Below, one piece after another: positions 3,190 through 64,000 of a stretch of 64,000 nucleotides of DNA. The first letter of the stretch is position 1. Each line of letters starts with the position of its first letter. Under the pieces are notes generated by a model. It was given only the letters and a program-made list of their open reading frames with translations, searched no databases and was not told the DNA's origin. The translations under genes were made by a program, and so were the position numbers. The DNA is from Methylibium sp. NZG. Lineage in GTDB: Bacteria; Pseudomonadota; Gammaproteobacteria; Burkholderiales; Burkholderiaceae_C. The stretch is taken from assembly GCA_001263235.1 (NCBI GenBank), contig LGRD01000018.1, forward strand, positions 210,917 to 274,916, given 5' to 3'.

Positions 3190-3236
3190 ATGCCGAACCG
3201 GGGCCGAGGGCCTGGTCCTTGATTGGCCCGGCCGAC

Positions 3237-50937: not shown

Positions 50938-50962
50938 ATCCCAGGGCAGGTGCCGGCCAGCG

Positions 50963-51721
50963 TCACAGGTACGGAAAGTCCCGCGCCATCGGCTGCAGGT
51001 GGTAGCCGGCGTCGATCATCAAGGTGCTGCCGGTCAACGCCGCGTTGCCGAGCGCAAACGCCACGGCATCGGCCACGTCGGTCGGTTGCACCGTGCGGCC
51101 GGTGAGCGACAGCGCGGCCATGCGCTGCAGCCGGGCATCGTCGATCAGCGCGCTGTCCAGCGCGAGCCCCGGCGCCACGCCGACCACCCGCACCTGCGGC
51201 GCGAGCGCCTTGGCGAGCGTGCGCGTGAGCAGCTCCAGGCCGCCTTTGGACAGCGCGTACGACAGGTAGTCGGGGTTCGGGTTCCACAGCCGCTGGTCGA
51301 GCATCAGCACAAGCGCGCTGCGCACGTCGCGAGCGCCCGCGTGCGCGAGCAGCGCGCGCGCCAGCAGCACGGCGGAGCCGGTGTTGACGCAAGCGTGCTT
51401 GCTGAGCGACGCATAGCTGAACGTGCCCACATCGTCGTGTTCGAACAGGCTCGCGTTGTGCACCACGCCGTCGAGGCGGCCGAAGCGCTCGATCACTGCC
51501 GGCACGAGCGCTGTTGTGGCGGCCTCGTCGGCCAGGTCGGCCCGAAACGATTCGGCGCTGGCACCGTGGTCGCGCAACTGAGCCACCGTCGCGGCCGCAG
51601 CGTCGGCCGAATGGTGGAAGTGCAGTGCGATGTCGTGCCCGCGCTGCGCCAGTTCCAGCGCGATGACGCGGCCCAGGCGCTGTGCGGCGCCGGTGACGAG
51701 GACGACGGGGCGGGAGGGCAT
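50963..51721 (-). CDS. Short-chain dehydrogenase/reductase, pteridine/dihydromonapterin reductase-like
   Basis: [22 protein letters not shown] and the YxxxK motif (YALSKGGL). Trimmed to MPSRPVV at 51721. Confidence 0.8.
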
Positions 51722-51738
51722 GCTTCCTACAATGGGCG

Positions 51739-52929
51739 ATGCACGAACATCAAAGCGCCAGTGTATCGGCGGCACTGTTGCGCTTGGTCCGCGAGGCGAT
51801 TGCCCGCAACGGTGGCTGGTTGCCCTTCGACCGCTTCATGGCGATGGTGTTGTATGCGCCGGGCCTGGGCTACTACGCCAACACCGGCCGCAAGTTCGGG
51901 CACCTGCCGGCCTCGGGCAGCGACTTCGTCACCGCACCGGAGTTGTCGCCGCTGTTCGGCCAGGCGCTGGCGCACCAGGTGGCGCAGGCGCTGCAGGCCA
52001 CCGGCACCGACGAGGTCTGGGAGTTCGGCGCCGGCTCGGGCGCGTTGGCGGCGCAGTTGCTGGGCTCGCTCGGCGCGAGCGTGCGGCGCTACACGATCGT
52101 CGATCTGTCGGCCAGCCTGCGCGAGCGCCAGCAAGAGGCGCTGCGGCGCTGGGCAGGGCAGGTCGCCTGGGCCGATGCGCTGCCCGCGCAGATGCAGGGC
52201 GTCGTCGTCGGCAACGAGGTGCTCGACGCGATGCCGGTGCAACTGCTGCACTTCGGCGCCGAGGGCTGGCAGGAGCGCGGTGTGGTCGTTGACAACGTTG
52301 CCTCGGCAGGCGACCCGGACAGACGCCTGGGCGATCACCCAGCGAGCATCGCGAATCACCGCTCGGCCAGCGATGCGGCTGGCGACGGCGCTGCATTCAC
52401 GTGGGCAGACCGAGCCACCACGCTGTCTGCGCCGTTCGAGTCGCCGCCGCCGATCGGCACCGTCACCGAGGTCCACGCCCAGGCCGAAGCCTTCATCGCC
52501 ACGCTGGCCGAGCGCTTGACGCGCGGCGCGGCGTTCTTCATCGACTACGGGTTTCCGCAAGCCGAGTACTACCACCCGCAGCGCACCGGCGGCACGCTGA
52601 TGTGCCACCGCGCGCACTGCGTGGACGCCGATCCGCTGGCCGACCTGGGGTTGAAGGACATCACCGCGCACGTCAACTTCACCGGCATTGCGCTGGCAGG
52701 GCAGGACGCCGGGCTCGACGTGCTGGGCTACACCAGCCAGGCGCGCTTCCTGCTGAACTGCGGGCTGGGCGAGTTGCTGCAAGGCGCCGATGTGCGAGCG
52801 GCTGTGCCCGCACAGAAGCTGCTGATGGAGCACGAGATGGGAGAGCTCTTCAAGGTGATCGGCTTTGCCAAGGGCGGTGAGTTCGATGCGCTGGGCTTTT
52901 CCAGCGGCGACCGGTCGCACACGCTGTGA
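51739..52929 (+). CDS. SAM-dependent methyltransferase, MidA/NDUFAF7 (DUF185) family
   Basis: FDRFMAMVLYAPGLGYY, DFVTAPELSPLFG and EFGAGSGALA. Confidence 0.8.
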   Translation: MHEHQSASVSAALLRLVREAIARNGGWLPFDRFMAMVLYAPGLGYYANTGRKFGHLPASGSDFVTAPELSPLFGQALAHQVAQALQATGTDEVWEFGAGSGALAAQLLGSLGASVRRYTIVDLSASLRERQQEALRRWAGQVAWADALPAQMQGVVVGNEVLDAMPVQLLHFGAEGWQERGVVVDNVASAGDPDRRLGDHPASIANHRSASDAAGDGAAFTWADRATTLSAPFESPPPIGTVTEVHAQAEAFIATLAERLTRGAAFFIDYGFPQAEYYHPQRTGGTLMCHRAHCVDADPLADLGLKDITAHVNFTGIALAGQDAGLDVLGYTSQARFLLNCGLGELLQGADVRAAVPAQKLLMEHEMGELFKVIGFAKGGEFDALGFSSGDRSHTL

Positions 52930-53034
52930 TGCGCTGGTTTCATCCATCGGGATCGCCAGCGTGATGCGCTGGTATCTCGGGAGCGCCGGCGTGATCCGCT
53001 GGGTTCGATCAGGAGCGCCAACGTGATCCGCTGG
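52926..53034 (+). repeat. Tandem 30-35-nt repeat (3 full copies plus the 5' end of a fourth) duplicating the start region of the DUF2905 gene
   Basis: The units begin at 52926, 52961, 52991 and 53023. Each starts GTGAT(G/C)CGCTGG, and units 1-3 end with GGGA/GGGAG/AGGAG plus 7-8 nt. Confidence 0.85.
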
Positions 53035-53217
53035 CTCATCGTCGTCTTCCTCGCGCTGCTGATCTTCAGCGGCCTGCACCGATGGCTGGAGAAGATCGGC
53101 CTGGGCAAGTTTCCCGGCGACTTTCGTTTCCGGCTGTTCGGGCGTGAGTTCTTCGTGCCACTCACGAGCAGCGTCCTGTTGAGCTTCATCGCTCTGTTGA
53201 TCTCGCAGGCGTTCTAG
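53023..53217 (+). CDS. DUF2905-family small membrane protein
   Basis: 64 aa, MIRWLIVVFLALLIFSGLHRWLEKIGLGKFPGDFRFRLFGREFFVPL... GTG start 7 nt after AGGAG. Confidence 0.8.
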   Translation: MIRWLIVVFLALLIFSGLHRWLEKIGLGKFPGDFRFRLFGREFFVPLTSSVLLSFIALLISQAF

Positions 53218-53247
53218 TAAGGACCGCATTTTTCCCAGGAGCCCGCC

Positions 53248-55260
53248 ATGCTGTCAGCACCGACCCCTGAAGCCGAAGCGTCGCGGCTTGCCGCACTGCT
53301 GTCTCTGGACGTGCTCGACAGCGGCGCGGAACGCGAGTTCGACGCGCTGGTCGGTGCGGCGTCGCGGTTGTGCGGCGTGCCGATCGCGTTGATCAGCCTG
53401 GTCGACGCTCAACGCCAGTGGTTCAAGGCCAACCACGGCCTGCCCGGCATGACCGAGGCGCCTCGGGAGCACGCCTTTTGCGCACACACGGTGCTGGGCG
53501 ACGAGTTGCTCGAAGTGCCCGACACCCGCCAGGACCTACGCTTCGCTGACAACCCGATGGTCGTCGGCGCGCCCCATTTGCGCTTCTACGCCGGTGCGCC
53601 GCTGCAGCTTCGCGACGGTTCGCGCGTCGGCACACTGTGCGTGGCCGACCGGCACCCGCGGCGCTTGAGTGCGGACCAGGCCAAGGCGTTGCAGTGCCTC
53701 GCCACCGTCGCATCGAGCGCACTGGAGCGTCGCCGCGACGGCGTCGAGCTGCGTCGTGCGGTGCGCGCACTGCACGCCAGCGAGGCGCGCTTTCGCACGT
53801 TGAGCGAAGCCGCGCCGCTGGGCGTCTACGCGGCCGACGAGCACGGCTCCTGCACCTACACCAACCCTCGCTGGCAGCAGATTTTCGGGCTGACGGCGCA
53901 GCAAGCGTTCGGCGCCGGCTGGACCCACTCGCTCCACCCTGTGGACCGCGCAGCCGTCTTCGCCGCCTGGAGCAGGGCGACGGCGGCAAGGCAGGAGTTC
54001 GATCTGGAGTTCCGCATCCAGCGGCCGGATGGATCGGTGCGCGAAGTGCGCTCGCGCGCGCGCACCATGGCGGGCGACCGGGGCCAGGCGCTCGGCTTCG
54101 TCGGCTCGGTGGAAGACGTGACGGAGCGCAAGAAGCTGGAGGCCTTCCTCGACCGGACCGGCCGGCTGGCCGGCGTGGGCGGCTGGGAGATGGACCTGCG
54201 AACCGGCGCGATCAGCTGGTCGGCCCAGACCAGCCGCATCCACGAAGTGGAACTCGGCTTCGTGCCCACCCTCGAGCAGGGCGTTGCCTTCTACGCCGAA
54301 GAGGCGCGCCCGGTGATCGAGGCGGCCGTGCACGCCGGCATGCAGCACGGCACGCCCTGGGACCTGGAGCTGCCGCTGGTCACCGCGCAGGGGCGCCACA
54401 TCTGGGTGCGGGCGTTGGGGGAGGTCGAGTTCGAGGCGGGGCGTCCGGTCCGGCTGATCGGGGCGCTGCAGGACGTGACCCAGCAGCGCCTGCGCCGGCT
54501 CGAGCTGCAGCAGGAGCAGACGTTGCGGATACAGCTCGAAGAGCAGGTCCGTGAGACCGAAGGCCTGCTGCGCGAACGCAGTGAAATGCTCGACGTGATG
54601 GCGCACGAAGTCCGCCAGCCGCTCAACAACGCCTCGGCGGCGCTGCAAAGCGCAGGCCATGCCCTGGCCGGCGTCAGCGACAAACGATCCGTCGCGTCGC
54701 GCCTGCAGCGCGCCCAGACCGTGTTGGGCCAGGTGCTGGGCAGCATCGACAACACGCTGGCGGTGGCGTCGCTGCTGGCGCAGCCGGAGCCGATCGACCG
54801 CGGCGAATACACCGACATCGACGCGCTGATCAGCGTCGTCGTCGCCGACGTGCCGGCCCCCGAGCGGGGGCGCATTCGGGTGGAGCGACCGAGCAGAACA
54901 CGCACTGCCTCGATGGACATGAGCCTGATGCGCCTGGCGCTGCGCAACGTGCTGTCCAACGCACTGAAGTACAGCCCGCCGGCGTCTGTGGTGACCTTGG
55001 CGGTGTGCGACTCCGACGAGCCGCTGGCGGTGGTCTTCGACGTTGCCAACGAAGGCGCGGGGCTGACTGCCGACACCGTCGAGCGGCTGTTCCTGCGCGG
55101 AGCCAAGCACGGCGGCGTGCGGCAGGGCCACGGGCTGGGCCTGGGCCTGTACATCGTGCGGCGCGTGATGGACCTGCACGGCGGCAGCGTGACCCTGTCG
55201 CAAAACGGGCCCGAACAGGTGGTCATGCGCCTCGTCGTCAACCAGCCCCTGGGCGACTGA
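53248..55260 (+). CDS. Cytoplasmic GAF-PAS-PAS sensor histidine kinase
   Basis: N-terminal GAF domain (ALISLVDAQRQWFKANHG...FCAHTV...FYAGAPL), two PAS/PAC segments, H-box MAHEVRQPLNN and G2 box GHGLGLGLYIVRRVMDLHGG. No TM segment. Confidence 0.88.
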   Translation: MLSAPTPEAEASRLAALLSLDVLDSGAEREFDALVGAASRLCGVPIALISLVDAQRQWFKANHGLPGMTEAPREHAFCAHTVLGDELLEVPDTRQDLRFADNPMVVGAPHLRFYAGAPLQLRDGSRVGTLCVADRHPRRLSADQAKALQCLATVASSALERRRDGVELRRAVRALHASEARFRTLSEAAPLGVYAADEHGSCTYTNPRWQQIFGLTAQQAFGAGWTHSLHPVDRAAVFAAWSRATAARQEFDLEFRIQRPDGSVREVRSRARTMAGDRGQALGFVGSVEDVTERKKLEAFLDRTGRLAGVGGWEMDLRTGAISWSAQTSRIHEVELGFVPTLEQGVAFYAEEARPVIEAAVHAGMQHGTPWDLELPLVTAQGRHIWVRALGEVEFEAGRPVRLIGALQDVTQQRLRRLELQQEQTLRIQLEEQVRETEGLLRERSEMLDVMAHEVRQPLNNASAALQSAGHALAGVSDKRSVASRLQRAQTVLGQVLGSIDNTLAVASLLAQPEPIDRGEYTDIDALISVVVADVPAPERGRIRVERPSRTRTASMDMSLMRLALRNVLSNALKYSPPASVVTLAVCDSDEPLAVVFDVANEGAGLTADTVERLFLRGAKHGGVRQGHGLGLGLYIVRRVMDLHGGSVTLSQNGPEQVVMRLVVNQPLGD

Positions 55261-55278: not shown

Positions 55279-55965
55279 TCAGACCGACGTCAGCTTGTCC
55301 TTGAAAAGGTAGCCGACGCGGGGTTTGGAGTGCAGCGGGACGGCCAGTGGCGTGGCCCGCTCGATGCGGCGTCGCAGCCGGTACACCACCGCGTTGAGCC
55401 CGTCGGGGGCGTCGCTGTCGGCCCGTCGCCCCAGGCGCTGGCAAAGCGCCTCCCGGGTCACCGGCTTGCCGCCGGCTTCGAGCAGGCAGATCAGCACGGT
55501 GAGGTCGATGTCGCTCAGATCGACGCAGGCACCGTCCGGGGCGAACAGCTGCCGGCCGCGCCGGTCCAGCTTCCACGGTTCAGCCGACCGCACCGAGCTC
55601 GCCGCGCGGCGCTGCACCGCCTCGATCGCGGCGATCACCTGCTCGAACTGGACGGGCTTGGCCAGGTACATGTCGGCGCCTGCGCTGACCACCTGCTGGA
55701 ACACATCGGGCGCCAGCCGCCCGGAGACGACGACCACGCCGGCCGAACTGCGCCGGCGCAGCACATCGATCAGCTCCAGCCCGCTGATGCCGGGGAGCAT
55801 CAGGTCGACCAGGTAGAAGTCGAACGCATGCGGGTCGCCGTGGGCGAGCAGCGCGTTGCTGCTCGAAAACGTGGTCACCGCAATGCCCTGGTCGCCCAGG
55901 AACTGGGCCAGAAACTCCCGGTACTCCGGATCGTCGTCGATGAGCGCGAGCGTCTTGGGCAACAT
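55279..55965 (-). CDS. OmpR-family response regulator
   Basis: REC domain (LALIDDDPEY...YLVDLMLPGISG...AKP) plus a winged helix (VYRLRRRIE...PRVGYLF). Trimmed to MLPKTLA at 55965. Confidence 0.88.
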   Translation of the reverse strand: MLPKTLALIDDDPEYREFLAQFLGDQGIAVTTFSSSNALLAHGDPHAFDFYLVDLMLPGISGLELIDVLRRRSSAGVVVVSGRLAPDVFQQVVSAGADMYLAKPVQFEQVIAAIEAVQRRAASSVRSAEPWKLDRRGRQLFAPDGACVDLSDIDLTVLICLLEAGGKPVTREALCQRLGRRADSDAPDGLNAVVYRLRRRIERATPLAVPLHSKPRVGYLFKDKLTSV

Positions 55966-56252
55966 TTTGCTGGCAATGCTACGCCGGCATGGCACGCCGC
56001 AGCGCGCGGCTCGGTCGGGCCACGAGACCGGCAAGTTCCCCGTTCAATCTCGCGATACGCATAACTGTCATTTTTAGCTGATAAATGATCAACATGAAGT
56101 TATTGTTCTCGTGAAGTTTGCCGCTTGGAGTCGCACCGGGTTGAGAACTGGCCGTACTTTGCCGGCTGTTTTTCGGCTCAACTACGGGCTTTACAGCGCA
56201 GACTGGCGGCATGCCCCGGTGGCAATTCCGGGGCGCCGATCGAGGAGAACAA

Positions 56253-59200
56253 ATGAGATCAAACGGCATCATCATGAGCCGCAGCATCACTCGGACGTGG
56301 CGCGCGTGGGTTGTGATGGCAATGCTCGCCTTCGGCGCCCTGCCGGTCTCGGCCGAGATCACGGCGTCCAAGACCTTCCTGCCCGGCTCGTGGTCCGGCG
56401 TCGGCGCGGAGCCTGCTCCCATCAGCGCCCCGGTGCCGCAAGGCGACGTGGTGTGGCTCAACATCTCGGTGCTGAACAGCGCCACCACCGCGGTCACCGC
56501 GCTCACCGGCACCGACCCGCTGCCCACCGGCGCCACGGTCGCCACCGGGCCGTCGCCGTTTGCATCCACAGGTTGCGCCAGCAGCGGGCCCGGCAACTTC
56601 ACCGCCACGCCGGGTGCCGCCAGCTTCAGCTTCAACGGCTTGACCGTGCCGGCTTTCGCCGCCGGCGTGAATGGCTCCTGCGAAATCTACGTGCGGGTGC
56701 GGATCACCGGGCCGACTGGCACCGGCGCCGGCAGCGTGGCAACGCTGCTCAACACGATTCCGATCGGCAATGTGTCCGGCAGCGAGGGCGGCGCGCCAGT
56801 GTCCAACGGCTCGCCGGCATCGCAGTCGATTCAGGTCACCAAGCTGGCGAACCTGTCTGTCGCCAAGAGTTTCTCGCCGGCCACGGTGCCGATGGGGGCG
56901 ACCTCGGTGGCCAGCATCGTGATCACCAACAACGCGGCTGCCACCGTCGGCCTGAGCACGTTGACCGAGAACCTGCCGGCCAGCCTCACGGCGACGACGA
57001 CGCCCACGGTCGCCTGCCCCGGCGGGACACCGGCTTCCGCCACCGCGATGGGGGGCACCTTTCCCAACCTGACGTTTCCGGCCGGCGCCACGCTTGCCGC
57101 CAACGGCACTTGCACGGTGAGCTTCACCGCCCGTGCAGAAACACAAGCCAACAACGGCTACACCGCTGGCAACACCGTGCCCGCCAACGGCGTGGGCAAC
57201 GACCGCAGCCTGAACAACCCGGCGGCCACCGGCAACCTGACGGTGCAGTCGCCACTGCTCACGAACAAGAGCTTCAGCCCCAATCCGTCGCGCGCCAACG
57301 AGTTGGTGACGATGACGCTGTCGTTCCAGAACCGTTCGGCGTTTGCGCTCAGCGCCGGCAGCTTCACCGACAACCTGCCGACGGCCGGCGCGGGCGTGAT
57401 GCTGGTCCGAGCCCCTGGCGGCGCGACCGCCGCGGGGGCCAACCCGGGCGGCTGCGCCAGCGCGGCGGCAATCACCGCGGCGAGTTCATCGGCCACGGTC
57501 TCGGGTGCTGCGCTCACTGTGCCGGCCAACGCAACCTGCACTTACACCGTTCCCGTGAACGTCAGCAACGACGGCAGCTACGCCAACACGATCGCCTCGA
57601 CCAGCTACACCAGCGCCGACACCAACGTCGGCACCACCTCCAACGGGCCGGCGAGCTCGACCCTCACCGCCTACGACCAGATCACCGCCAGCAAAGAGGG
57701 CCTGAACCCGATCAGCGGCGCCTCGGCGGGATCGGTGTCGCCTGGCAACCGCATTCGCTACCGCGTCAACATCTCCAACTACACCTTGTCGGCGATCGGC
57801 GATGCGCAGGTCACCGACCCGCTGCCCACGGCCGGCGGTCAGCAGGTGACGTATGTTTCGTCGATCGCGCCGACCGTGTCGGGCGCCGGGTGCACCGGGC
57901 CGTCGTCGGTCGGCGGCAGCGCGGCCGCACCGGTGTTCAGCGGCATCGGGATACCTGCCGGCAGCGCGGGCAGCCCGGCCACGTGCTCGCTGGAGTTCGT
58001 CGCGCAAGTGCCCGACGCCTGGCCGGCGAACACCTCGGTCGTGAACACCATCCCGCCGGCCAACATCGTCTACGGCGGTGGCGCTTCCTCACTGCAGGGA
58101 CCGGCGGTCGTCGACACGCGACCCTACATCGACCGCCTCACGACCGCCAAGGCGGTCAGCCCGACAACGATCTTCCAGGGCGACACCGCGCTGGTCACGG
58201 TCACGCTGTTCAACAACAGCTACAACACCATGACGGCGGCGCAGTTCAACGACGCGCCGCTGTTCGGTGGGTCGAACTCGGTGCGCAACGCGAGCCCGAC
58301 GAGCCCGGTGACCACCTGCGGCGGCACGCCGGCCTACACCTTCACCGCGGGCGGCGCCAGCTTTGCCGCCAGCGGCCTGAGCGTGCCCGCGCGCGGGAGC
58401 TGCTCGGTGAGCTGGCGCGTCGTCGGCATCAACCCGGGGGGCCCCTACACCAACACCCTGCCGGCGGCCAATGTCTCGGGCACGGTGGACAACGGGCCGG
58501 GCCCGGTGACCTTCAACGCCGCCAACACCGCGACCGCGAACCTGACCGTCAACTCAGTCCTGCTGGTCGGCAAGAGCTTTTCGCCGACGTCGGTCGGCGG
58601 CTCCGGCGGCGTCTCGCGCGTGACGGTGTCGCTGCAGAACGTGGGCAGCTCGGCGCTGACCAACCTGCTGGCCGGCGACAACCTGCCGGCCAACCTGCTG
58701 CCGGCCACACCGCTGAACGGCAGCACCACCTGCGGCGGCGCGCCCGTCATCACCAGCACCACCACGCCAGCGCCGCGGGTGCAGGTGAGCGGCGTCACGC
58801 TGTTTGCCGGCACGACCTGCCTGCTGAGCTTCGACGTCGTCAGCACCAACGCCACGGCGTCGGTCAACACCATTGCCGCTGGCGACGTGACGGCCGACAA
58901 CGGCGTCTTCAACGCCAGCCCGGCGGCGGCGACGCTGAACAAGTTCGCTTCGCCCGGCGTGAACATCTCCAAGTCGTTCTCGCCGTCGACGCTGTCGGCG
59001 GTGGGCGCGGTCTCGAGGCTGCGCGTGAACGTGCAGAACACGTTGCCGGGCAATGTGCCGCTGACCAACCTCGGCTTCGTCGACACCATGCCCGCCGGCA
59101 TGACGCTGAGCCCGACGCCCAACGCCGTCACCGACTGCGTGGGCGGCGTGCTCAATGCGCAGCCGAACGCGTCGAGCTTCTCGCTGACGCTGTCGGCGCT

Positions 59201-62200
59201 GACCGGTGGACAGACCTGCACGGTGGCGCTCGACGCCACGCTGATCGGCTCGGGAACCTACGTCAACACGCTGCCCTCGGGTGTGGTCACCAACGACCAG
59301 GGCGTGACCAACGCCGATCCCTTCAGCAGCTCGCTCGGCACGCTGGCCACGCTGGGCGTGGACAAGAACTTCAGCCCGCCGGCTGCGGCACCCGGCGTGC
59401 CCTCGCGGCTGACGATCCGCATCATCAACACGCTGGCGACGACGTTCACCAACCTGTCGCTGAACGACCCGCTGCCCGCAGGCGTGACACCGGCGTCGCC
59501 GTCGGCGCTGTCCACCACCTGCTCGGGCGCAGCGGTCAGCGCGAGCTCGACCAACGTGCTGATGAGCGGCGGCACCCTGCCGGCCGGCAGCGCGTCGGCG
59601 CCGACCTTCTGCGAGGTCAGCCTGCTGGTGCAGGCGGCCTCGGCCGGCACATTCACCAACACCATCCCCGCCGGTGGAGTGACAGGCGTCAACGGCCTGG
59701 GCATCACCATCGGCAACACCGACCCGGCCACCGCGATCTTCCGCGGCCTGCAGCCGGTGGTGGTGAGCAAGGCGTTCCAGAACGCCAGCCGCACGCTCAA
59801 CCAGCCGAACCGCCTGACGGTGACGCTGACCAACCCGAACGCGGTGGCGATCAACAACGCCGCAATCACCGACACCCTGCCGCCCAACGTGTTCGTGGCC
59901 AACACGCCCAACGCCAGCACCACCTGCACCAACTCCACCGTGCCGGACGCGGCCGGCACGCTCACCGTGCCGGTGGCGGTCACCGCCACGGCCGGTGCGT
60001 CGTCGATGCGCATCAGCGGCGCACGCATCCCGGCGGGCGGCTCGTGCACCTTCCAGGCCGATGTGCTGACCAACCAGATCGGCACCTGGGTCAACACCAT
60101 CCCGGCGGCGGCGCTCACCACCTACGAGGGCGTGAGCAACGCCGCGCCAGCAACGGCGCAGTTCACCACGTTCGATCCGCCGGTGCTGGGCAAACAGTTC
60201 GTGCCGGTGCAAATTGCCACCGGCGGTACCTCGCAATTGCGGATCACGCTGGGCAACCGCAACGCCGTCGCGCTGACGCTGACCTCGACCCTGACCGACA
60301 ACCTGCCCACCGCGCCCGGCGCGCTGGTGCTCGGCAGCCCGGCCATCGACACCGGAGCCACCACCTGCACGGTGGGCAGCGTGGGCGCCACCACGGGCGG
60401 CGGCACGGTGACGTACGCCAACGGCGCGAGCATCCCGGCCGGCGGCTGCGTGATCGTCGTCAACGTCACCGGCAGCGTGGAGGGCAGCTACAACAACGTG
60501 ATTGCTGCGGGCGGCCTGCAGACCAACGGCGGGCCGAGCCCGCAGCCGGCCACGGCCAACCTGTCGATCACCAACACGCTGGCCTCGATCAGCGGCCGGG
60601 TGTTCCGCGACCACGACAACAACGGCCTGTTCGGCCCGGCCGATGTCGCCATCGGCGCCCACACCATCGAGCTGCTCGACAGCGGCGGTGCGGTGGTGGC
60701 GACCACCACCACCGACACGCTCGGCAACTACGTCTTCCTGGGCCTCGCGCCGGGCACCTACAGCGTGCGCGAGCCGGCGCAGCCGGTGGGCACGTTCAAC
60801 GGCATCACCACCGCCGGGGCGGCCACGGCCGGCGGCTCGGCCGGCACGGCCACCGCCGTCGGCACGGCGCCGAGCGCGATCAACACCATCGTCGTCGCGG
60901 GCGGGCAGAGCTCGACCGGCAACAACTTTGCCGAAGTCGTGCCCAGCCGCATCGCCGGCCGGGTGTTCCTCGACGCCAACAACAGCGGCACGCAGCAGCC
61001 GGGTGAAGCGGGCATCGGCGGCGTGGCTGTCACCCTGACCGGCACCGACGACACGGGCGCCGCGGTCAACCTCTCGACCACCACCGCGAGCGACGGGACC
61101 TACAGCTTTGCCAACCTGCGCCCGGGCAACTACACCTTGACCGAGGGCGCTCAGCCCGCGGGCAGCGCCAACGGCATCACCACGGCCGGGCCGGTCTACA
61201 CGCTGAACACCACCACTGCTGCGCCAGGCGGCGTGCCGGGCAGCGCCACCGCGCCGTCGGTCGGCAGCGTGGCCTCACCGTCGGGCACCAGCCGGATCGG
61301 CAACAACGGCGGCGCGACGGTGGCGATCACGCTGCCGCCGAACGCCGAGTCGCCGAACAACAACTTTGCCGAGATCCCGACCAACCGCAGCGTCAGCGGC
61401 CGCATCTTCACCGACGTGAACAACGACGGCCTGTTCAACACCGGCGACACCGCCATCGCCGGCCAGACGGTCACGCTCACCGGCACAGACGCCAGCGGCA
61501 ACGCGGTGAACCTGACCACCACCGCAGGCAGCGACGGCAGTTATGCGTTCACCGGCCTGTCCGAGGCCAACGGCGCGGGCTACACCGTGAGCTACAACCC
61601 GCTCGTCGGCTCACCCGCGCTCAACGTGCTGGGGCAATCGGCGCCGGGCTCGACCGGCGGCACGGGGGCGGCCAGTGGCAGCGTGGCCTCGCGCAGCACG
61701 ATCAGCGGCATCCAGCTCGGCGGCTTGCTGGTCGGCTCGTCGAACAACAACTTCACGCAGCGGCCGCCGGGCAGCATTGCCGGCCGGGTGTTCCTCGACG
61801 CGAACAACAACGGCCTGTACGAGCCACCGGCCGGCGGGCTCGATGCCGCGCTCAGCGGCGTGCAGCTCGTGTTGACCGGCACCGACTACGGCTTCGACGG
61901 CCAGGTGGGCGGCGGCGACGACGTGACCATCGCTTCGGGCACCGTGACCACCACCACGGCGGCCGACGGCACCTACACCTTCGGCAACCTGCGCGCCGGC
62001 AGCTACACCGTGACCGAACCGGCTCAGCCGGCCAACACCGCCAACGGCATCACCACCGCCGGCCCGGTCAACGGCACGCCCGCCGGCACCAGCGGCACCG
62101 CCACCGCAGCCGGCACCGCGCCGAGCGCCGTCGCCACCATCGGCCTCACGCCGGGCGCTGTCAGCCCCGGCAACAACTTCGCCGAGGTGGCGCTGGTGTC

Positions 62201-64000
62201 CATCGCCGGCACGGTGTTCGTCGACGCCAACCGCAACGATGTGCTCGACGCGAGCGACACGCTGCGCATCCCCGGTACCACCGTCACGCTGGTGCGCGGT
62301 GCGAGCTGCGGCGCGGGCACGGTGATCCAGACGGTGCTCACCGATGCCTCGGGCAACTACCTCTTCAGCAACGTGCCCGCCGACGGTGGCTACCGCATCT
62401 GCGAGACGCAGCCCACTGGCTACGCCAACGGCGCGTCGATTGGCATCAACGGCACGACGCCAGCGTCGAACGAGATCGTCATCGCCGCGCTGCCGACCAC
62501 CGGCCTCACGGCGCAAAACTTCGGCGAGCGTGCCGGCTCGCTGGCCGGCTCCGTCTACCAAGACCAGTCGGCCCCGCCCGGCCAGACCAACAACGGCGTG
62601 CGCGATGCCGGTGAACTCGGCATCGCCAACGTGCCCGTCACGCTGACCGGCACCGACGTGCGTGGCAACGCCGTCATTGTGACCGTGCTGACCGACGCCT
62701 CGGGCAACTACCTGTTCGAGAACCTGGTCGAGCCCAACGTCAGCGGCTACACCGTGACCGAAGGCGCCATCCCGCCGGCCAGCGGCGCCTTCAACGACGG
62801 CCTGGACACGCTGGGCAACGCCGCCACCGCAGCCGGCAGCGCCGCCGTCAACGATGTGTTCGGCGGCGTGCGCATCGGCGCTGGCCAGCAATCGACCGGC
62901 TACCTGTTCGGCGAGTTGCCGATCGCGCCGATCACCGGCACCGTCTACATCGACAGCAACCGCAACAACGCGCTCGACGGCACCGACCCGCTGCGCATCC
63001 CCGGCGTCACGCTCACGCTGTACGCCGGCAGTGCGTGCAGCGGCACCGTGCTGCAGACGCAGACGACCGACGCCAGCGGCAACTACAGCTTCTCCGGCAT
63101 CAGCGTGGGCGGCACCTACTCGGTGTGCCAGACGCAGCCGGTCGCCTGGGGCAACGGCAATGCGGGTGGCACGGCGGGCTCGAACCAGATCGTCGTCACC
63201 GGCCTCACTCTGGCCGGCTCGCCGAACAACAACTTCGGCGAGCTGCCGGCCTCGGTGGCGGGCAGCGTCTTCCTCGACGCGGCCAACAACGGCAGCCGCG
63301 ACGGCGCCGACACGCCGATCGCCGGTGTGGTGATGACGCTCACCGGCACTGACGTGCTCGGCAATGCGGTGAACCGCACGGCCACGACCGACGGCGCGGG
63401 CAATTTCTTCTTCAACGATCTGCCGGCGGCCAACGCCAGCGGCTACACCGTGACCGAGCAAGCCGCACAGCCGGTGGTCGGTGCGGCGACCACGTTGAAC
63501 GGCATCACCACGCGCGGCAGCATCGCAGGCGTGCTCACCGGCAGCGCCACCGGCGTCAACACCGCGCCGAGCGCAGTCAGCGCCATCACGCTGGTGGCGG
63601 GCGCCCAGTCGATCAACAACCTGTTTGCCGAGATCGCCCCGGTGGGTATCAGCGGCCGGGTCTTCATCGACGCCAACAACAACGGCGCGATCGACCCGCC
63701 GCTGGACACCGGCATCGCGGGTGTCGTCATCGTCGTGACCGGCACCGACGACACGGGCGCGGCCGTCAGCCGCAGCCTCACCACCGACAGTGCCGGCAAC
63801 TACAGCGTGCTCGACCTGCGCCCCGGCACCTACACCGTCACCGAGCCGGCGCAGCCCCCCGGCACCAGCAACGGCCGCACGACGCCCGGCAGCGCCGGCG
63901 GCACGGCCACGCCGATCACCACCGTGCCGAGCGTCATCGGCGGCGTGGTGCTCAACGTGCCCGGCGTCGTCTCCAGCGCCAACAACTTCGGCGAGATCCC
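56253..64000 (+). CDS. Giant secreted repeat protein (putative adhesin): signal peptide, DUF11-like modules, SdrD-B/Cna-B-like repeats; 3' end beyond window
   Basis: Absent from the ORF track because it is unterminated. GAGGAG-N6-ATG at 56253, signal peptide MRSNGIIMSRSITRTWRAWVVMAMLAFGALPVSA|EI. Every landmark motif I located starts at a coordinate divisible by 3, from 56253 to 63981. The track lists no other plus-strand ORF in that frame here, so the frame is open to base 64000 (at least 2,582 codons). Confidence 0.88.
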   Translation, partial: MRSNGIIMSRSITRTWRAWVVMAMLAFGALPVSAEITASKTFLPGSWSGVGAEPAPISAPVPQGDVVWLNISVLNSATTAVTALTGTDPLPTGATVATGPSPFASTGCASSGPGNFTATPGAASFSFNGLTVPAFAAGVNGSCEIYVRVRITGPTGTGAGSVATLLNTIPIGNVSGSEGGAPVSNGSPASQSIQVTKLANLSVAKSFSPATVPMGATSVASIVITNNAAATVGLSTLTENLPASLTATTTPTVACPGGTPASATAMGGTFPNLTFPAGATLAANGTCTVSFTARAETQANNGYTAGNTVPANGVGNDRSLNNPAATGNLTVQSPLLTNKSFSPNPSRANELVTMTLSFQNRSAFALSAGSFTDNLPTAGAGVMLVRAPGGATAAGANPGGCASAAAITAASSSATVSGAALTVPANATCTYTVPVNVSNDGSYANTIASTSYTSADTNVGTTSNGPASSTLTAYDQITASKEGLNPISGASAGSVSPGNRIRYRVNISNYTLSAIGDAQVTDPLPTAGGQQVTYVSSIAPTVSGAGCTGPSSVGGSAAAPVFSGIGIPAGSAGSPATCSLEFVAQVPDAWPANTSVVNTIPPANIVYGGGASSLQGPAVVDTRPYIDRLTTAKAVSPTTIFQGDTALVTVTLFNNSYNTMTAAQFNDAPLFGGSNSVRNASPTSPVTTCGGTPAYTFTAGGASFAASGLSVPARGSCSVSWRVVGINPGGPYTNTLPAANVSGTVDNGPGPVTFNAANTATANLTVNSVLLVGKSFSPTSVGGSGGVSRVTVSLQNVGSSALTNLLAGDNLPANLLPATPLNGSTTCGGAPVITSTTTPAPRVQVSGVTLFAGTTCLLSFDVVSTNATASVNTIAAGDVTADNGVFNASPAAATLNKFASPGVNISKSFSPSTLSAVGAVSRLRVNVQNTLPGNVPLTNLGFVDTMPAGMTLSPTPNAVTDCVGGVLNAQPNASSFSLTLSALTGGQTCTVALDATLIGSGTYVNTLPSGVVTNDQGVTNADPFSSSLGTLATLGVDKNFSPPAAAPGVPSRLTIRIINTLATTFTNLSLNDPLPAGVTPASPSALSTTCSGAAVSASSTNVLMSGGTLPAGSASAPTFCEVSLLVQAASAGTFTNTIPAGGVTGVNGLGITIGNTDPATAIFRGLQPVVVSKAFQNASRTLNQPNRLTVTLTNPNAVAINNAAITDTLPPNVFVANTPNASTTCTNSTVPDAAGTLTVPVAVTATAGASSMRISGARIPAGGSCTFQADVLTNQIGTWVNTIPAAALTTYEGVSNAAPATAQFTTFDPPVLGKQFVPVQIATGGTSQLRITLGNRNAVALTLTSTLTDNLPTAPGALVLGSPAIDTGATTCTVGSVGATTGGGTVTYANGASIPAGGCVIVVNVTGSVEGSYNNVIAAGGLQTNGGPSPQPATANLSITNTLASISGRVFRDHDNNGLFGPADVAIGAHTIELLDSGGAVVATTTTDTLGNYVFLGLAPGTYSVREPAQPVGTFNGITTAGAATAGGSAGTATAVGTAPSAINTIVVAGGQSSTGNNFAEVVPSRIAGRVFLDANNSGTQQPGEAGIGGVAVTLTGTDDTGAAVNLSTTTASDGTYSFANLRPGNYTLTEGAQPAGSANGITTAGPVYTLNTTTAAPGGVPGSATAPSVGSVASPSGTSRIGNNGGATVAITLPPNAESPNNNFAEIPTNRSVSGRIFTDVNNDGLFNTGDTAIAGQTVTLTGTDASGNAVNLTTTAGSDGSYAFTGLSEANGAGYTVSYNPLVGSPALNVLGQSAPGSTGGTGAASGSVASRSTISGIQLGGLLVGSSNNNFTQRPPGSIAGRVFLDANNNGLYEPPAGGLDAALSGVQLVLTGTDYGFDGQVGGGDDVTIASGTVTTTTAADGTYTFGNLRAGSYTVTEPAQPANTANGITTAGPVNGTPAGTSGTATAAGTAPSAVATIGLTPGAVSPGNNFAEVALVSIAGTVFVDANRNDVLDASDTLRIPGTTVTLVRGASCGAGTVIQTVLTDASGNYLFSNVPADGGYRICETQPTGYANGASIGINGTTPASNEIVIAALPTTGLTAQNFGERAGSLAGSVYQDQSAPPGQTNNGVRDAGELGIANVPVTLTGTDVRGNAVIVTVLTDASGNYLFENLVEPNVSGYTVTEGAIPPASGAFNDGLDTLGNAATAAGSAAVNDVFGGVRIGAGQQSTGYLFGELPIAPITGTVYIDSNRNNALDGTDPLRIPGVTLTLYAGSACSGTVLQTQTTDASGNYSFSGISVGGTYSVCQTQPVAWGNGNAGGTAGSNQIVVTGLTLAGSPNNNFGELPASVAGSVFLDAANNGSRDGADTPIAGVVMTLTGTDVLGNAVNRTATTDGAGNFFFNDLPAANASGYTVTEQAAQPVVGAATTLNGITTRGSIAGVLTGSATGVNTAPSAVSAITLVAGAQSINNLFAEIAPVGISGRVFIDANNNGAIDPPLDTGIAGVVIVVTGTDDTGAAVSRSLTTDSAGNYSVLDLRPGTYTVTEPAQPPGTSNGRTTPGSAGGTATPITTVPSVIGGVVLNVPGVVSSANNFGEI
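56370..60587 (+). repeat. Ten tandem DUF11-like modules (about 130-165 aa each)
   Basis: The opening Lys of each K-x-F-x-P-type motif lies at 56370, 56865, 57267, 57693, 58149, 58572, 58971, 59364, 59769 and 60192. Each module has a D/N-x-LP segment and two Cys. Confidence 0.75.
60588..64000 (+). repeat. At least nine SdrD-B/Cna-B-like repeats (108-147 aa each)
   Basis: The repeats open with (I/V)(S/A/T)G(R/T/S)V(F/Y)xDxNxNG at 60588, 60951, 61392, 61776, 62202, 62541, 62931, 63255 and 63648. Each closes with NNF(A/G)E. Confidence 0.8.

What the first reader, a model, noticed from the sequence alone, without database searches (positions are those of the whole stretch)
56253..64000. Giant surface-protein gene invisible to the ORF track
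A single plus-strand frame opens at GAGGAG-N6-ATG (56253). It encodes a Sec-type signal peptide (cleavage predicted at VSA|EI) and has no stop before the window ends, giving at least 2,582 codons. Because it is unterminated, the track omits it. The track instead shows a 1,631-aa Arg/His/Gly-rich ORF in the neighbouring frame (56111..61006) and 616- and 702-aa antisense ORFs. The real product is Thr/Ala/Gly/Asn/Pro-rich with almost no charged runs and is built entirely of Ig-like repeats, which is typical of an adhesin or biofilm matrix protein. It occupies the last 12% of the window and its C-terminus lies off-window. That C-terminus would reveal the anchoring or secretion route (PEP-CTERM or IPTL-CTERM-type sorting signal, T1SS signal, or a beta-barrel).
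Basis: partly seen in the sequence, partly recalled or inferred. Interest (0 to 1): 0.75.

Follow-up and report, generated by a model that had tools for sequence, protein, structure and literature searches.

The report
Giant surface-fibre gene with separate barrel anchor
The open frame is a real gene for a 3,634-residue, cross-link-stabilised surface fibre of a Methylibium bacterium, and its relatives are always followed by an uncharacterised giant outer-membrane barrel gene and a cell-wall-binding lipoprotein gene that probably export and anchor it.

Summary
From ATG 56253 the + frame runs 2,582 codons to the window end without a stop. Third-position GC is 0.93 there, against 0.58 and 0.60 in the other frames, so the long overlapping ORFs are shadows. 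The product is 100% identical to GenBank KNZ32501.1, a 3,634-aa "hypothetical protein" of Methylibium sp. NZG, so 1,052 residues lie off-window.

Architecture: Sec signal peptide, 10 DUF7933 domains, 11 SdrD_B domains, then a conserved CLIPPER/SdrD_B base and a charged Pro-rich tail. Nine of the ten DUF7933 repeats carry the family's Lys/Asp-Glu/Asn isopeptide triad and all ten carry a Cys pair. Nine of the 12 lysines in the window part are triad lysines.

No PEP-CTERM, IPTL-CTERM, LPXTG, RTX or in-chain barrel is present. Instead, in 81 related loci the giant gene is followed by a ~1,100-aa protein with no Pfam or NCBIfam family, predicted to be an outer-membrane barrel of at least 32 strands, and then by an OmpA-type lipoprotein. 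Natural fusions (giant–barrel, OmpA–barrel) and many single-chain passenger-plus-barrel relatives point to a split, autotransporter-like export and anchoring system. I found no published description of it. The export mechanism is inferred, and the partner genes could not be read in this genome.

The parts
55966..56252 (+). Intergenic region and 5' leader of the giant gene. It holds an AT-rich stretch (56066-56095, 27% GC), a terminator-like hairpin with a T-run (56148-56178) and the RBS GAGGAG (56242-56247).
   Evidence: Sequence. No sigma-70 consensus match; 2 terminator-like hits against 0.5 expected. No Rfam match at E<=1. Not conserved in any related locus.
56253..64000 (+). Giant surface-protein gene, first 2,582 of 3,634 codons (Methylibium sp. 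NZG AD742_12255, KNZ32501.1). It continues about 3.16 kb beyond the window.
   Evidence: No stop, GC3 0.93. 100% identity to P0001 over the whole window part.
56253..56354 (+). Sec-type signal peptide, residues 1-34, predicted cleavage VSA|EI.
   Evidence: n/h/c-region pattern. The mature N-terminus is conserved in orthologues behind divergent signal peptides. Heuristic only; no SignalP run.
56358..60551 (+). Array of 10 DUF7933 (CnaA-like, E-set) domains, residues 36-1433. Units in nt: 56358-56810, 56838-57224, 57240-57653, 57684-58106, 58128-58508, 58545-58925, 58944-59324, 59340-59717, 59742-60152, 60165-60551. Nine carry the Lys / Asp-Glu / Asn triad (Lys 40, 205, 339, 633, 774, 907, 1038, 1173, 1314); unit 4 lacks the Lys. 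All ten carry one conserved Cys pair.
   Evidence: Pfam PF25564 E 7e-110, 9 stretches. Self-built HMM finds 10 units plus 2 CLIPPER-type units off-window. Alignment with Lys and Cys positions. Triad spacing matches the published reference. Columns conserved in 207 domains of 18 homologues. Repeat model pLDDT 70.6, with 9IFR the only target above TM 0.5 in both directions.
60582..63947 (+). First 9 of 11 consecutive SdrD_B (CnaB/transthyretin-like) domains, residues 1444-2565, each with a D-x-N-x-N-G-x-x-D-type loop and closing with NNFAE[I/V]. There is no lysine anywhere in this array.
   Evidence: Pfam PF17210 E 2.5e-88, 9 stretches. Unit map and alignment. No Lys between residues 1315 and 2831.
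63948..64000 (+). Closing strand and linker of SdrD_B unit 9 (…VLNVPGVVSSANNFGEI). The window ends here, inside the gene.
56111..61006 (+). Shadow ORF (1,631 aa, Arg/Gly/His-rich) in the +1 offset frame; not a gene.
   Evidence: In this frame the GC-rich position is codon position 2 (0.93) and GC3 is 0.58. Composition R 21.7%, H 11.2%.
58554..60662 (-). Antisense shadow ORF (702 aa); not a gene.
   Evidence: Lies wholly inside the GC3-rich coding frame.
61611..63461 (-). Antisense shadow ORF (616 aa); not a gene.
   Evidence: Lies wholly inside the GC3-rich coding frame.

Best explanation
The frame encodes the passenger, or fibre, subunit of a three-component cell-surface system. SHOWN: it is a real coding gene for a 3,634-aa protein with this order of parts: Sec signal peptide; 10 DUF7933 domains; 11 SdrD_B domains; a conserved base (CLIPPER, SdrD_B, a transthyretin-like region, CLIPPER, SdrD_B-like module); and a charged, Pro-rich tail. 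Nine of the ten DUF7933 units keep the family's Lys/Asp-Glu/Asn triad and all ten keep a Cys pair. In relatives the gene is followed by a ~1,100-aa predicted giant outer-membrane beta-barrel, whose start overlaps the giant's stop (11 nt in the two annotated loci), and then by an OmpA-type lipoprotein. INFERRED: after Sec export, the DUF7933 domains form intramolecular isopeptide bonds and disulfides, and the lysine-free SdrD_B domains are stiffened by Ca2+. Together they would make a protease- and force-resistant stalk roughly 100 nm long (about 26 Ig-like domains at about 4 nm each). The variable N-terminal end points outward. The conserved C-terminal module sits in or passes through the partner barrel, leaving the Pro-rich tail in the periplasm. 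The OmpA lipoprotein ties the complex to peptidoglycan. Functionally this is a split autotransporter: passenger and translocator/anchor are separate polypeptides, and the barrel is far larger than the 12-16 strands of type V systems. A pore that wide could pass domains that were already folded and disulfide-bonded in the periplasm. The most likely role is adhesion or matrix and cell-cell attachment.
For: Coding status: 0 stops in 2,582 codons and GC3 0.93; full-length orthologues at 46-73% identity covering 97-100% of the query. Domains: Pfam hits; map. Isopeptide triad: 9 of the 12 lysines in the window part sit at the aligned beta-1 position. Spacing K1314/D1349/N1415 (+35/+101) compares with the published DUF7933 reference Lys973/Asp1008/Asn1068 (+35/+95) (PMC12617251). 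Across 207 domains the Lys column holds only Lys (153 aligned, 54 unaligned), the acid column is D/E in 200, and the Asn column is N in 188. No alternative sorting signal was found. Cassette: 70 of 71 testable loci have a giant ORF bearing the C-terminal module that ends at the partner's start, and the one exception is an in-frame fusion; 72 of 72 have the OmpA-like gene next. Partner: signal peptide, no Pfam hit above cut-off, no NCBIfam or PDB sequence match. Its AlphaFold model shows an N-terminal beta-sandwich followed by at least 32 long antiparallel strands, with pLDDT 75-90 over residues ~440-1080. All top Foldseek hits are large outer-membrane barrels: MtrB, SprA, LptD, TonB-dependent receptors, SlpA. 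Gene 3 has a lipobox and an OmpA domain, closest to OmpA C-terminus, TpgA and PA1041-type anchors. Fusions: in Lysobacter L066 giant and barrel form one 4,235-codon frame and the barrel's signal peptide is lost. In L086 an N-terminal OmpA domain is fused to the barrel (partner profile 251-1099, E 1e-39) and the protein ends in a canonical ...LATY beta-signal. Of 156 family representatives, 97 have the barrel at the C-terminus of a longer protein, and 70 of those have the giant's C-terminal module just upstream; their passengers use the same domain types. Conservation rises from 31-47% at the N-terminus to 65-78% at residues 3401-3600.
Against: The downstream genes of this particular genome could not be read, and no Methylibium NZG protein appeared among the top 120 partner homologues. 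Their presence here is inferred from the conserved C-terminal module and from the ...SHAR* ending, which resembles the overlap site in the 73%-identical orthologue. The partner model is only moderate (mean pLDDT 62, pTM 0.45) and its Foldseek TM-scores are 0.1-0.25, so the strand count and a closed single barrel are not established. No interaction between the module and the barrel was computed. Isopeptide bonds, disulfides and Ca2+ binding are predicted from conserved residues, not measured; the repeat model is of modest confidence and its match to 9IFR is weak (E 0.017). No adhesive tip domain was found, so adhesion is an architectural inference. Whether the fibre stays anchored or is released cannot be told.
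Confidence: 0.62

Rival explanations
1. It is a secreted, released matrix protein. The partner barrel acts only as a dedicated secretion pore, as TpsB does in two-partner secretion, and the giant protein is shed into the biofilm matrix or a sheath rather than staying anchored.
For: The same cassette evidence applies. There is no covalent link between giant and barrel in the split form. Carriers include sheath and biofilm formers of the Sphaerotilaceae and Leptothrix. No tip adhesin domain was found.
Against: The most conserved part of the giant protein is its C-terminal base (65-78% identity). In most family representatives that base is covalently joined to the barrel (97 of 156; L066), which fixes the passenger to the outer membrane. 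A peptidoglycan-binding lipoprotein, fused to the barrel in L086, fits a load-bearing anchor better than a mere pore.
Confidence: 0.2
2. It is a structural envelope or S-layer-like component. The barrel would be an abundant outer-membrane scaffold tethered to the wall, as SlpA is in Deinococcus, and the giant protein a surface lattice or sheath element rather than an adhesin.
For: Deinococcus SlpA structures are among the Foldseek hits with the highest TM-scores (0.24-0.28). The literature notes DUF11 domains in archaeal S-layer-associated porins (PMC12617251). An OmpA-type peptidoglycan tether is present.
Against: There is one giant gene per cassette, with a linear tandem-domain stalk typical of fibrillar adhesins. 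Its distal end is variable and its repeat number varies between species (1-12 and 3-13 units), unlike lattice-forming proteins. No SLH or coiled-coil region was found.
Confidence: 0.08
3. It uses a known route whose components lie elsewhere in the genome: T1SS/RTX, classical type V, PEP-CTERM/exosortase, IPTL-CTERM, T9SS or sortase-like. The downstream barrel would then be unrelated.
For: SdrD-type B repeats are best known from LPXTG-anchored proteins.
Against: There is a Sec signal peptide and no GGxGxD repeats. The only LPxTG-like string is internal, at residue 2080. There is no PEP or IPTL motif, no hydrophobic C-terminal helix, and no sorting-domain, autotransporter, TPS or T9SS HMM hit at E<=0.1 in the last 1,052 residues. 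MSCRAMM models score 122 bits against a cut-off of 2,500. Linkage with the barrel gene is complete wherever it can be tested.
Confidence: 0.05
4. It is a pseudogene or an assembly artefact of a repetitive region in a metagenome-assembled genome.
For: The source is a MAG, and the gene is long and repetitive at the protein level.
Against: There is no stop in 3,634 codons and GC3 is uniform at 0.89-0.95. There are no long DNA tandem repeats; the protein repeats are only 27% and 38% identical on average, so collapse or mis-joining is unlikely. Independent assemblies give colinear orthologues covering 97-100%, and functional residues are conserved.
Confidence: 0.02

Closest known systems
CLIPPER/DUF11-type fibrillar adhesins of Gram-negative bacteria, e.g. 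Acinetobacter silvestris B9T28_05395 (PDB 9IFR; PMC12617251)
   Same: A giant Sec-exported protein whose stalk is a tandem array of CnaA-like E-set domains carrying a Lys-Asp-Asn isopeptide triad, often with disulfides. DUF7933 is one of the ten Pfam families created in that survey. An OmpA-type peptidoglycan-binding element is associated with the C-terminal end.
   Different: Here the stalk is DUF7933 plus SdrD_B, with only two CLIPPER domains near the base. No N-terminal adhesive domain of the CshA type is present. The OmpA domain is on a separate lipoprotein, and a dedicated giant barrel gene lies between the two. The published example describes no barrel partner.
Classical (type Va) autotransporters and other type V systems (two-partner Vb, inverse Ve)
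   Same: Sec-dependent export; a large beta-rich passenger N-terminal to, or partnered with, an outer-membrane barrel; in the cis-fused relatives the order is signal peptide, passenger, C-terminal barrel; a peptidoglycan-binding periplasmic element as in intimin (LysM) or TpgA with trimeric autotransporters.
   Different: The barrel region is about 900 residues with at least 32 predicted strands, against 12-16. There are no Autotransporter, TPS, POTRA/ShlB or inverse-autotransporter HMM hits. The passenger has Ig-like domains with conserved Cys pairs instead of a beta-helix. In this genome's type, passenger and barrel are separate genes, and the conserved recognition element is C-terminal, not an N-terminal TPS domain.
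MtrCAB porin-cytochrome complex and the T9SS SprA translocon
   Same: These are the best structural matches to the partner (6r2q_B E 1e-8; 8gl8_A E 3e-7). Both are very large barrels (26 and 36 strands) that enclose or pass a folded partner protein, which is the working principle proposed here.
   Different: There is no sequence relationship, and TM-scores are only 0.14-0.25. There are no haem motifs and no T9SS C-terminal domain or other T9SS components. Taxonomy differs (Beta- and Gammaproteobacteria, not Bacteroidota).
Staphylococcal MSCRAMM SdrD (B-repeat region)
   Same: Tandem SdrD_B domains (PF17210) with D-x-N-x-N-G-type loops. In SdrD these bind Ca2+ and make a rigid spacer (established knowledge of SdrD; not tested here).
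   Different: There is no A-domain, no SD repeats and no LPXTG anchor. NCBIfam MSCRAMM_SdrD scores 122 bits against a cut-off of 2,500. The host is a diderm.
T1SS giant RTX adhesins (LapA, SiiE, MpIBP)
   Same: Similar size, a tandem Ig-like stalk, Ca2+-type motifs, and retention at the outer membrane through a terminal module lodged in an outer-membrane channel.
   Different: Those lack a Sec signal peptide, carry C-terminal RTX repeats and a T1SS signal, are retained by an N-terminal plug in TolC-like LapE, and are encoded next to ABC and MFP genes. None of this is seen here.

Membership tests
DUF7933 (PF25564) intramolecular-isopeptide domain family | Significant match to the Pfam model | tested here: met
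   E 7.2e-110, 362 bits against a cut-off of 26.5, 9 stretches; 10 units with a self-built HMM.
DUF7933 (PF25564) intramolecular-isopeptide domain family | Lys (beta-1), catalytic Asp/Glu and Asn triad at the family's positions | tested here: met
   9 of 10 units have the Lys and all have the acid and the Asn. Spacing is +35/+101 against the reference +35/+95. The columns are conserved in 207 domains.
DUF7933 (PF25564) intramolecular-isopeptide domain family | The isopeptide bond actually forms (side chains in contact, or mass-spectrometric evidence) | not testable with these tools
   The model tool returns no coordinates. The repeat model has pLDDT 70.6, and 9IFR matches at TM 0.51/0.53, E 0.017.
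SdrD_B (PF17210) domain | Significant match to the Pfam model, in tandem | tested here: met
   E 2.5e-88 with 9 stretches in the window; E 3e-42 with 4 more off-window; 13 units in all.
Fibrillar adhesin (stalk of tandem repeats + adhesive domain + anchor) | Long stalk of tandem Ig-like domains in an exported protein | tested here: met
   About 26 Ig-like domains behind a signal peptide.
Fibrillar adhesin (stalk of tandem repeats + adhesive domain + anchor) | Recognisable adhesive (ligand-binding) domain at the distal end | tested here: not met
   The first unit (residues 36-186) is a DUF7933 variant with a 14-residue insertion. No lectin, vWA, TED or CshA-type hit was found.
Fibrillar adhesin (stalk of tandem repeats + adhesive domain + anchor) | Known cell-surface anchor | tested here: not met
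   No LPXTG, PEP-CTERM, IPTL-CTERM, in-chain OmpA or in-chain barrel. A candidate anchor is encoded in trans in relatives.
MSCRAMM SdrC/SdrD (NCBIfam NF012181, NF000535) | Whole-protein score above the curated cut-off; LPXTG anchor | tested here: not met
   122 bits against 2,500 and 81 bits against 1,700. There is no C-terminal LPXTG.
Classical autotransporter (type Va) | C-terminal 12-strand Autotransporter barrel domain in the same chain | tested here: not met
   No such Pfam or NCBIfam hit in the last 1,052 residues at E<=0.1. The tail is hydrophilic.
Two-partner secretion (type Vb) | N-terminal TPS domain in the cargo; Omp85-type TpsB with POTRA domains | tested here: not met
   No TPS hit in the giant protein. 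No POTRA, ShlB or Omp85 hit in the partner at E<=1, and no NCBIfam hit.
Inverse autotransporter (type Ve, intimin/invasin) | N-terminal 12-strand barrel followed by Big_1 passenger domains in one chain | tested here: not met
   The partner has only a sub-threshold Big_1/Invasin_D3 match (21 bits against 34.9), and it lies N-terminal to the barrel, not after it.
T1SS RTX adhesin | No Sec signal; C-terminal RTX nonapeptides and secretion signal; adjacent ABC/MFP genes | tested here: not met
   A signal peptide is present. There are zero GGxGxD motifs. No ABC or MFP genes lie next to orthologues.
PEP-CTERM / IPTL-CTERM sorting | C-terminal motif followed by a transmembrane helix and a basic cluster | tested here: not met
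   No hydrophobic window in the last 300 residues (maximum Kyte-Doolittle 1.1). No motif and no NCBIfam hit.
Giant-barrel partner family (uncurated; alignment A1) | The window's own genome encodes the barrel and OmpA genes directly downstream | not testable with these tools
   The contig is not retrievable and no NZG member was found. The inference rests on the C-terminal module and on linkage in 70 of 71 and 72 of 72 relatives.
Giant-barrel partner family (uncurated; alignment A1) | The partner is an outer-membrane beta-barrel | tested here: inconclusive
   Signal peptide; at least 32 predicted antiparallel strands; all top Foldseek hits are outer-membrane barrels, but with TM 0.1-0.25; canonical terminal beta-signal in the L086 homologue. 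Mean pLDDT is only 62.

The most novel reading that the evidence does not exclude
The barrel partner defines an undescribed outer-membrane export and anchoring family for giant Ig-like adhesins. It would be an autotransporter-like system that exists both fused and split. Its single-chain barrel of 32 or more strands would be wide enough to pass passenger domains already folded and disulfide-bonded in the periplasm. The passenger would be retained through a conserved C-terminal module and tied to peptidoglycan by an OmpA lipoprotein. In effect this would be a new branch of, or alternative to, type V secretion, present in thousands of protein clusters from Burkholderiales, Rhodocyclales and Lysobacterales.
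Probability: 0.35. Interest if true: 0.8.

Novelty: new variant of a known kind. Interest (0 to 1): 0.55.

Why it matters
How Gram-negative bacteria move very large, isopeptide- and disulfide-stabilised Ig-like adhesins across the outer membrane and hold them there is unknown for the CLIPPER, DUF7933 and SdrD_B class; the 2025 survey describes the domains but not the export route. The strict linkage found here makes the question directly testable in cultured strains such as Rhodoferax ferrireducens, Rhizobacter sp. Root1221, Lysobacter sp. Root76 and Ampullimonas aquatilis. The link is between a conserved C-terminal module, an uncurated giant barrel family (3,688 clusters at 50% identity) and an OmpA lipoprotein, and it is backed by natural fusions. 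If the barrel is the translocon, it would be among the largest single-chain outer-membrane barrels and a new solution for exporting folded passengers. There are also practical uses. These genes are routinely left as "hypothetical" or mis-split by ORF callers in GC-rich genomes. The lysine-poor, cross-linked stalk domains are of interest for protein engineering.

Tried and rejected
1. Retrieving the DNA beyond base 64000. The exact-product lookup found no contig. A 60-nt exact search of the metagenome collection found nothing. Cluster lookups of the closest partner homologues showed no NZG member.

2. Known sorting and secretion signals in the C-terminus (PEP-CTERM, IPTL-CTERM, LPXTG, RTX, autotransporter barrel, T9SS CTD): none found.

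3. A riboswitch or leader RNA upstream. There is a terminator-like hairpin, but no Rfam match and no conservation in relatives. Rejected as unsupported.

4. The neighbouring response regulator and GAF-PAS kinase as part of the system. They are not conserved next to orthologues, whose upstream genes are an integrase in L001 and an epimerase and Tn3 transposase in L004. Left as a local, unproven regulator.

5. Recent DNA-level repeat expansion or assembly collapse: no long tandem repeats.

6. Sequence-profile searches of the PDB. The partner profile gave no meaningful hit. The DUF7933 profile gave only non-significant hits, with 9IFR at E 3.3.

7. Literature searches for the cassette: SdrD B-like + OmpA + adhesin; DUF11 + OmpA + operon; Leptothrix LthB; fibrillar adhesin + barrel + OmpA-like; DUF11 + barrel + secretion. 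None returned a description of it. The library is incomplete, so this is absence of evidence only.

8. My first automatic cassette tallies (end, and the downstream count) used thresholds too tight for stop-to-stop ORFs. The upstream count and the downstream count are the ones to use.


Full report
**1. The observation**

From ATG 56253 the + strand frame is open to base 64000: 2,582 codons with no stop. From base composition about 45 stops would be expected, giving P(no stop) of about 2e-20. Codon-position GC is 0.58/0.60/0.93 in this frame, and GC3 stays at 0.89-0.95 in every 600-nt block. The other two frames have GC3 of 0.58 and 0.60.

The 1,631-aa ORF 56111..61006 and the 702- and 616-aa antisense ORFs exist. 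They are shadow frames: in the +1 frame the GC-rich position is codon position 2, and the product is 22% Arg and 11% His.

GAGGAG lies at 56242-56247, five bases (not six) before the ATG. The N-terminus has the n/h/c pattern of a Sec signal peptide ending in VSA|EI. Orthologues with quite different signal peptides share the mature start [E/A/D]IT[A/P]SKTFLPGSW. No SignalP-type tool was available.

**2. Identity**

The translation is 100% identical, over its whole length, to P0001. This is a 3,634-aa protein deposited as "MAG: hypothetical protein AD742_12255 [Methylibium sp. NZG]", GenBank KNZ32501.1, on a 293,515-bp contig. The organism belongs to the Burkholderiales, family Sphaerotilaceae.

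The gene is therefore already annotated publicly. It is missing only from an ORF list that drops unterminated frames, and 1,052 residues lie beyond the window. Orthologues of 3,000-3,600 aa at 46-73% identity cover 97-100% of the query in independent assemblies.

There are no long DNA tandem repeats, and the protein repeats are only 27% (DUF7933) and 38% (SdrD_B) identical on average. An assembly artefact or a pseudogene is therefore excluded.

**3. Anatomy**

Pfam gives DUF7933 (E 7e-110, 9 stretches) and SdrD_B (E 2.5e-88, 9 stretches) in the window part. DUF11 is only a sub-threshold trace there. The off-window part adds SdrD_B (E 3e-42) and two DUF11/CLIPPER domains (E 7e-18).

HMMs built from the protein itself give the full map:
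- signal peptide, residues 1-34
- ten DUF7933 units, 36-1433
- eleven consecutive SdrD_B units, 1444-2805
- CLIPPER, 2835-2949
- SdrD_B, 2989-3094
- an unassigned, transthyretin-like-looking region, 3095-3280
- CLIPPER, 3282-3390
- an SdrD_B-like unit, 3425-3509
- a hydrophilic, charged, Pro-rich tail to 3634

The window ends just after SdrD_B unit 9.

**4. Cross-link signature**

The protein has only 24 lysines. Of the 12 lysines in the window part, nine (40, 205, 339, 633, 774, 907, 1038, 1173, 1314) sit in one alignment column at the first strand of the DUF7933 units. Only unit 4 lacks this Lys. Each unit also has an Asp/Glu in a T[DE]xLP motif, an Asn in an xNT[IL]P motif, and one Cys pair.

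The 2025 survey of intramolecular isopeptide bonds created DUF7933 as a CnaA-like, E-set family. It gives the reference triad as Lys973/Asp1008/Asn1068 and notes that disulfides are prevalent in this family (PMC12617251). In unit 10 the triad is K1314/D1349/N1415, a spacing of +35/+101 against +35/+95.

In 207 DUF7933-type domains from 18 homologues:
- the Lys column contains only Lys (153 aligned, 54 unaligned)
- the acid column is D/E in 200
- the Asn column is N in 188
- the two Cys columns are Cys in 137 and 176

An AlphaFold model of unit 10 is a beta-sandwich of modest confidence (pLDDT 70.6). The CLIPPER crystal structure 9IFR is the only PDB target with TM above 0.5 in both directions, but its E-value is weak at 0.017.

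Bond formation is thus strongly suggested by conserved residues but was not demonstrated.

The SdrD_B units contain no lysine at all; there is none between residues 1315 and 2831. They therefore cannot form Lys-based isopeptides. They do carry D-x-N-x-N-G-x-x-D-type loops. In staphylococcal SdrD such loops bind Ca2+; this is established knowledge of SdrD and was not tested here.

**5. The C-terminus: none of the expected routes**

- The last 300 residues have no hydrophobic segment (maximum Kyte-Doolittle 1.1).
- No sorting-domain, autotransporter, TPS or T9SS model matches at E<=0.1.
- There are no GGxGxD repeats, no PEP or IPTL motif, and only an internal LPTTG at residue 2080.

What is conserved is a C-terminal module: GKVFVDCNGN…LKVDxxTLPRGSRLTTSSNRNxGDAxSLFxDLKxGELHRADFxEGSC…EQVKARRxQGEV…ALKFESKP…PQQGTDxAxQP. 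Residues 3401-3600 are the best-conserved part of the protein, at 65-78% identity to orthologues whose N-terminal 200 residues are 31-63% identical.

**6. A conserved cassette in relatives**

In the contigs of the 73% and 58% orthologues the giant gene is followed by two genes. The first overlaps it by 11 nt and encodes a ~1,100-aa protein with no Pfam annotation. The second starts 14-22 nt further on and encodes a ~365-aa protein.

The first protein has a signal peptide, a sub-threshold Big_1/Invasin_D3 Ig match near residues 70-125, and a long region ending …GVYLRLRFKF. It matches no NCBIfam model and no PDB sequence. The second is a lipoprotein (…LLGAC) with a poly-Pro linker and an OmpA peptidoglycan-binding domain. 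Its closest matches are OmpA's C-terminal domain, TpgA (the peptidoglycan-binding partner of a trimeric autotransporter adhesin) and PA1041-type anchor lipoproteins.

The ~1,100-aa family is large and well conserved, with more than 1,362 hits and about 60% identity across genera. A profile scan of 185,579 species genomes found it in 171. Carriers include:
- Burkholderiales: Rhodoferax, Rubrivivax, Piscinibacter, Ideonella, Leptothrix, Rhizobacter, Aquabacterium, Ramlibacter
- Lysobacterales: Lysobacter, Pseudoxanthomonas, Silanimonas
- several cultured strains

Across 81 non-redundant loci, 70 of 71 with enough upstream sequence have a giant ORF bearing the C-terminal module that ends at the partner's start. 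All 72 with enough downstream sequence have the OmpA-like gene next.

The passenger varies widely: 1-12 DUF7933/CLIPPER-type units, 3-13 SdrD_B units, and mostly 1,750-3,700 aa in the 47 loci where the ORF start lies inside the locus. The base and the partners stay constant.

**7. What the partner is**

An AlphaFold model built from 42 homologues has mean pLDDT 62 and pTM 0.45. Confidence is 75-90 over residues ~440-1080. It shows an N-terminal beta-sandwich (68-179) followed by at least 32 long antiparallel strands.

All leading Foldseek matches are large outer-membrane barrels: MtrB (E 1e-8), the T9SS translocon SprA, TonB-dependent receptors, LptD and Deinococcus SlpA. TM-scores are only 0.1-0.25. 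This supports the fold class (a very large outer-membrane barrel) but no specific family.

**8. Natural fusions**

(a) In Lysobacter sp. CGMCC 1.16608 (L066), giant and partner are one 4,235-codon frame. The C-terminal module (E 2e-113) runs through a Pro/Thr-rich linker into partner profile positions 42-1115, and the partner's signal peptide is absent.

(b) A sister type of giant gene (P0060) is followed by a 1,379-aa protein with an N-terminal OmpA domain. Its residues 513-1373 match the partner profile (E 1e-39), and it ends in a canonical …LATY beta-signal.

(c) An exhaustive profile search of 1.84 billion cluster representatives finds 3,688 family members (1,609 at E<=1e-30). Of 156 sequences examined, 59 are stand-alone barrels. 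The other 97 carry the barrel as the C-terminal ~1,000 residues of a 1,300-4,600-aa protein, and 70 of those 97 have the giant's C-terminal module just upstream of the barrel.

The N-terminal parts of these longer proteins use the same passenger domains: DUF11/CLIPPER, DUF7933, DUF7507 and SdrD_B. Where named at all, they are called "SdrD B-like domain-containing protein" or "uncharacterized repeat protein".

The C-terminal module and the barrel are thus one evolutionary unit that occurs fused or split. An OmpA domain fused at the barrel protein's N-terminus places that end in the periplasm. The giant's tail is joined to that same end in the fusions.

**9. Most likely mechanism (inferred)**

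1. Sec export to the periplasm.
2. Disulfide formation, and probably isopeptide formation, in the DUF7933 domains.
3. Passage of the passenger through the partner's wide barrel.
4. Retention of the conserved C-terminal module in or through the barrel, with the Pro-rich tail in the periplasm.
5. Tethering to peptidoglycan by the OmpA lipoprotein.

The result would be a stalk of roughly 100 nm, resistant to proteases and force, with a variable distal end. This works like an autotransporter whose passenger and translocator have been split, but it fails every membership test for type Va, Vb and Ve.

The conserved Cys pair in each unit, together with the barrel's size, suggests export of pre-folded domains, as in T9SS. 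That step is speculation.

I put 0.62 on this compound explanation. The rivals are a released matrix protein with the barrel acting as a pore only (0.20), an S-layer-like structural role (0.08), a known route encoded elsewhere (0.05), and an artefact or pseudogene (0.02).

**10. Limits**

- The downstream genes of this very genome could not be read.
- No NZG partner was seen among the top 120 homologues.
- The link rests on the conserved module and on the ending …SHAR*, which resembles …RHAR* in the closest orthologue. There the codons for H and A contain the partner's ATG, and the partner begins MHAD….
- No interaction was modelled.
- No function was measured.
- No adhesive tip domain was found.
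- Literature searches found no description of the cassette, but the library is incomplete.

**11. Verdict**

Novelty: new variant of a known kind. Interest: 0.55.

Noticed in passing
window 55279-55965 (-) and 53248-55260 (+): An OmpR-type response regulator is transcribed divergently from the giant gene, 286 bp from its ATG. Converging on it is a GAF-PAS histidine kinase with weak similarity to EPS regulators (EpsF-like E 7e-30; EpsW-like E 1e-11). The pair is not found next to orthologous cassettes, so any regulatory link is local and unproven.
   Followed up: partly
window 42903-45461 (+): A PAS-PAS-GGDEF-EAL protein (c-di-GMP turnover) lies 11 kb upstream. c-di-GMP commonly controls large adhesins, but no link was tested.
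   Followed up: no
window 56148-56178 (+): A terminator-like hairpin with a T-run sits in the 5' leader, between an AT-rich stretch (56066-56095, 27% GC) and the RBS. There is no Rfam match, and the leader is not conserved in related loci.
   Followed up: yes
window 60198-64000 (+) and beyond (protein residues 1315-2831): A run of 1,517 residues contains no lysine at all, covering the whole SdrD_B array. Homologues are also about 0.6-1.6% Lys, with Lys concentrated at the isopeptide position. This may reflect resistance to trypsin-like proteases or GC-driven codon bias.
   Followed up: partly
L066 527-13231 (Lysobacter sp. CGMCC 1.16608, NZ_JBHRZC010000002.1): A natural in-frame fusion of the giant passenger gene and the barrel gene: 4,235 codons in a cultured isolate, with the barrel's signal peptide lost. 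Sequencing error was not excluded.
   Followed up: partly
L086 15701-19840: In a sister cassette the partner is a 1,379-aa protein with an N-terminal OmpA domain fused to the barrel. The matching giant proteins (P0025, P0033, P0060) have a different C-terminal end (…HRVVRVE… followed by an alpha/beta-looking ~90-residue domain) in place of the Pro-rich tail.
   Followed up: partly
L088 1068-12401 (Candidatus Dactylopiibacterium MAG): A more distant single-chain passenger-plus-barrel protein (P0341, 1,969 aa) is flanked by two further CLIPPER-domain genes: 867 aa, and 926 aa with DUF8293. This could be a multi-subunit variant of the system.
   Followed up: no
L001 8631-9533; L004 1-2572 and 19767-20651; L005 17106-17951: Tyrosine-recombinase (phage-integrase family) and Tn3-type transposase genes flank the cassette in two orthologous contexts, and the upstream neighbours differ between genomes. 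This hints that the cassette moves as an island.
   Followed up: no
window 50795-53229: Two long overlapping ORFs, 50795-52519 (+, 574 aa) and 51727-53229 (-, 500 aa, ATG start), have no Pfam hits. It was not resolved which one, if either, is the gene.
   Followed up: no
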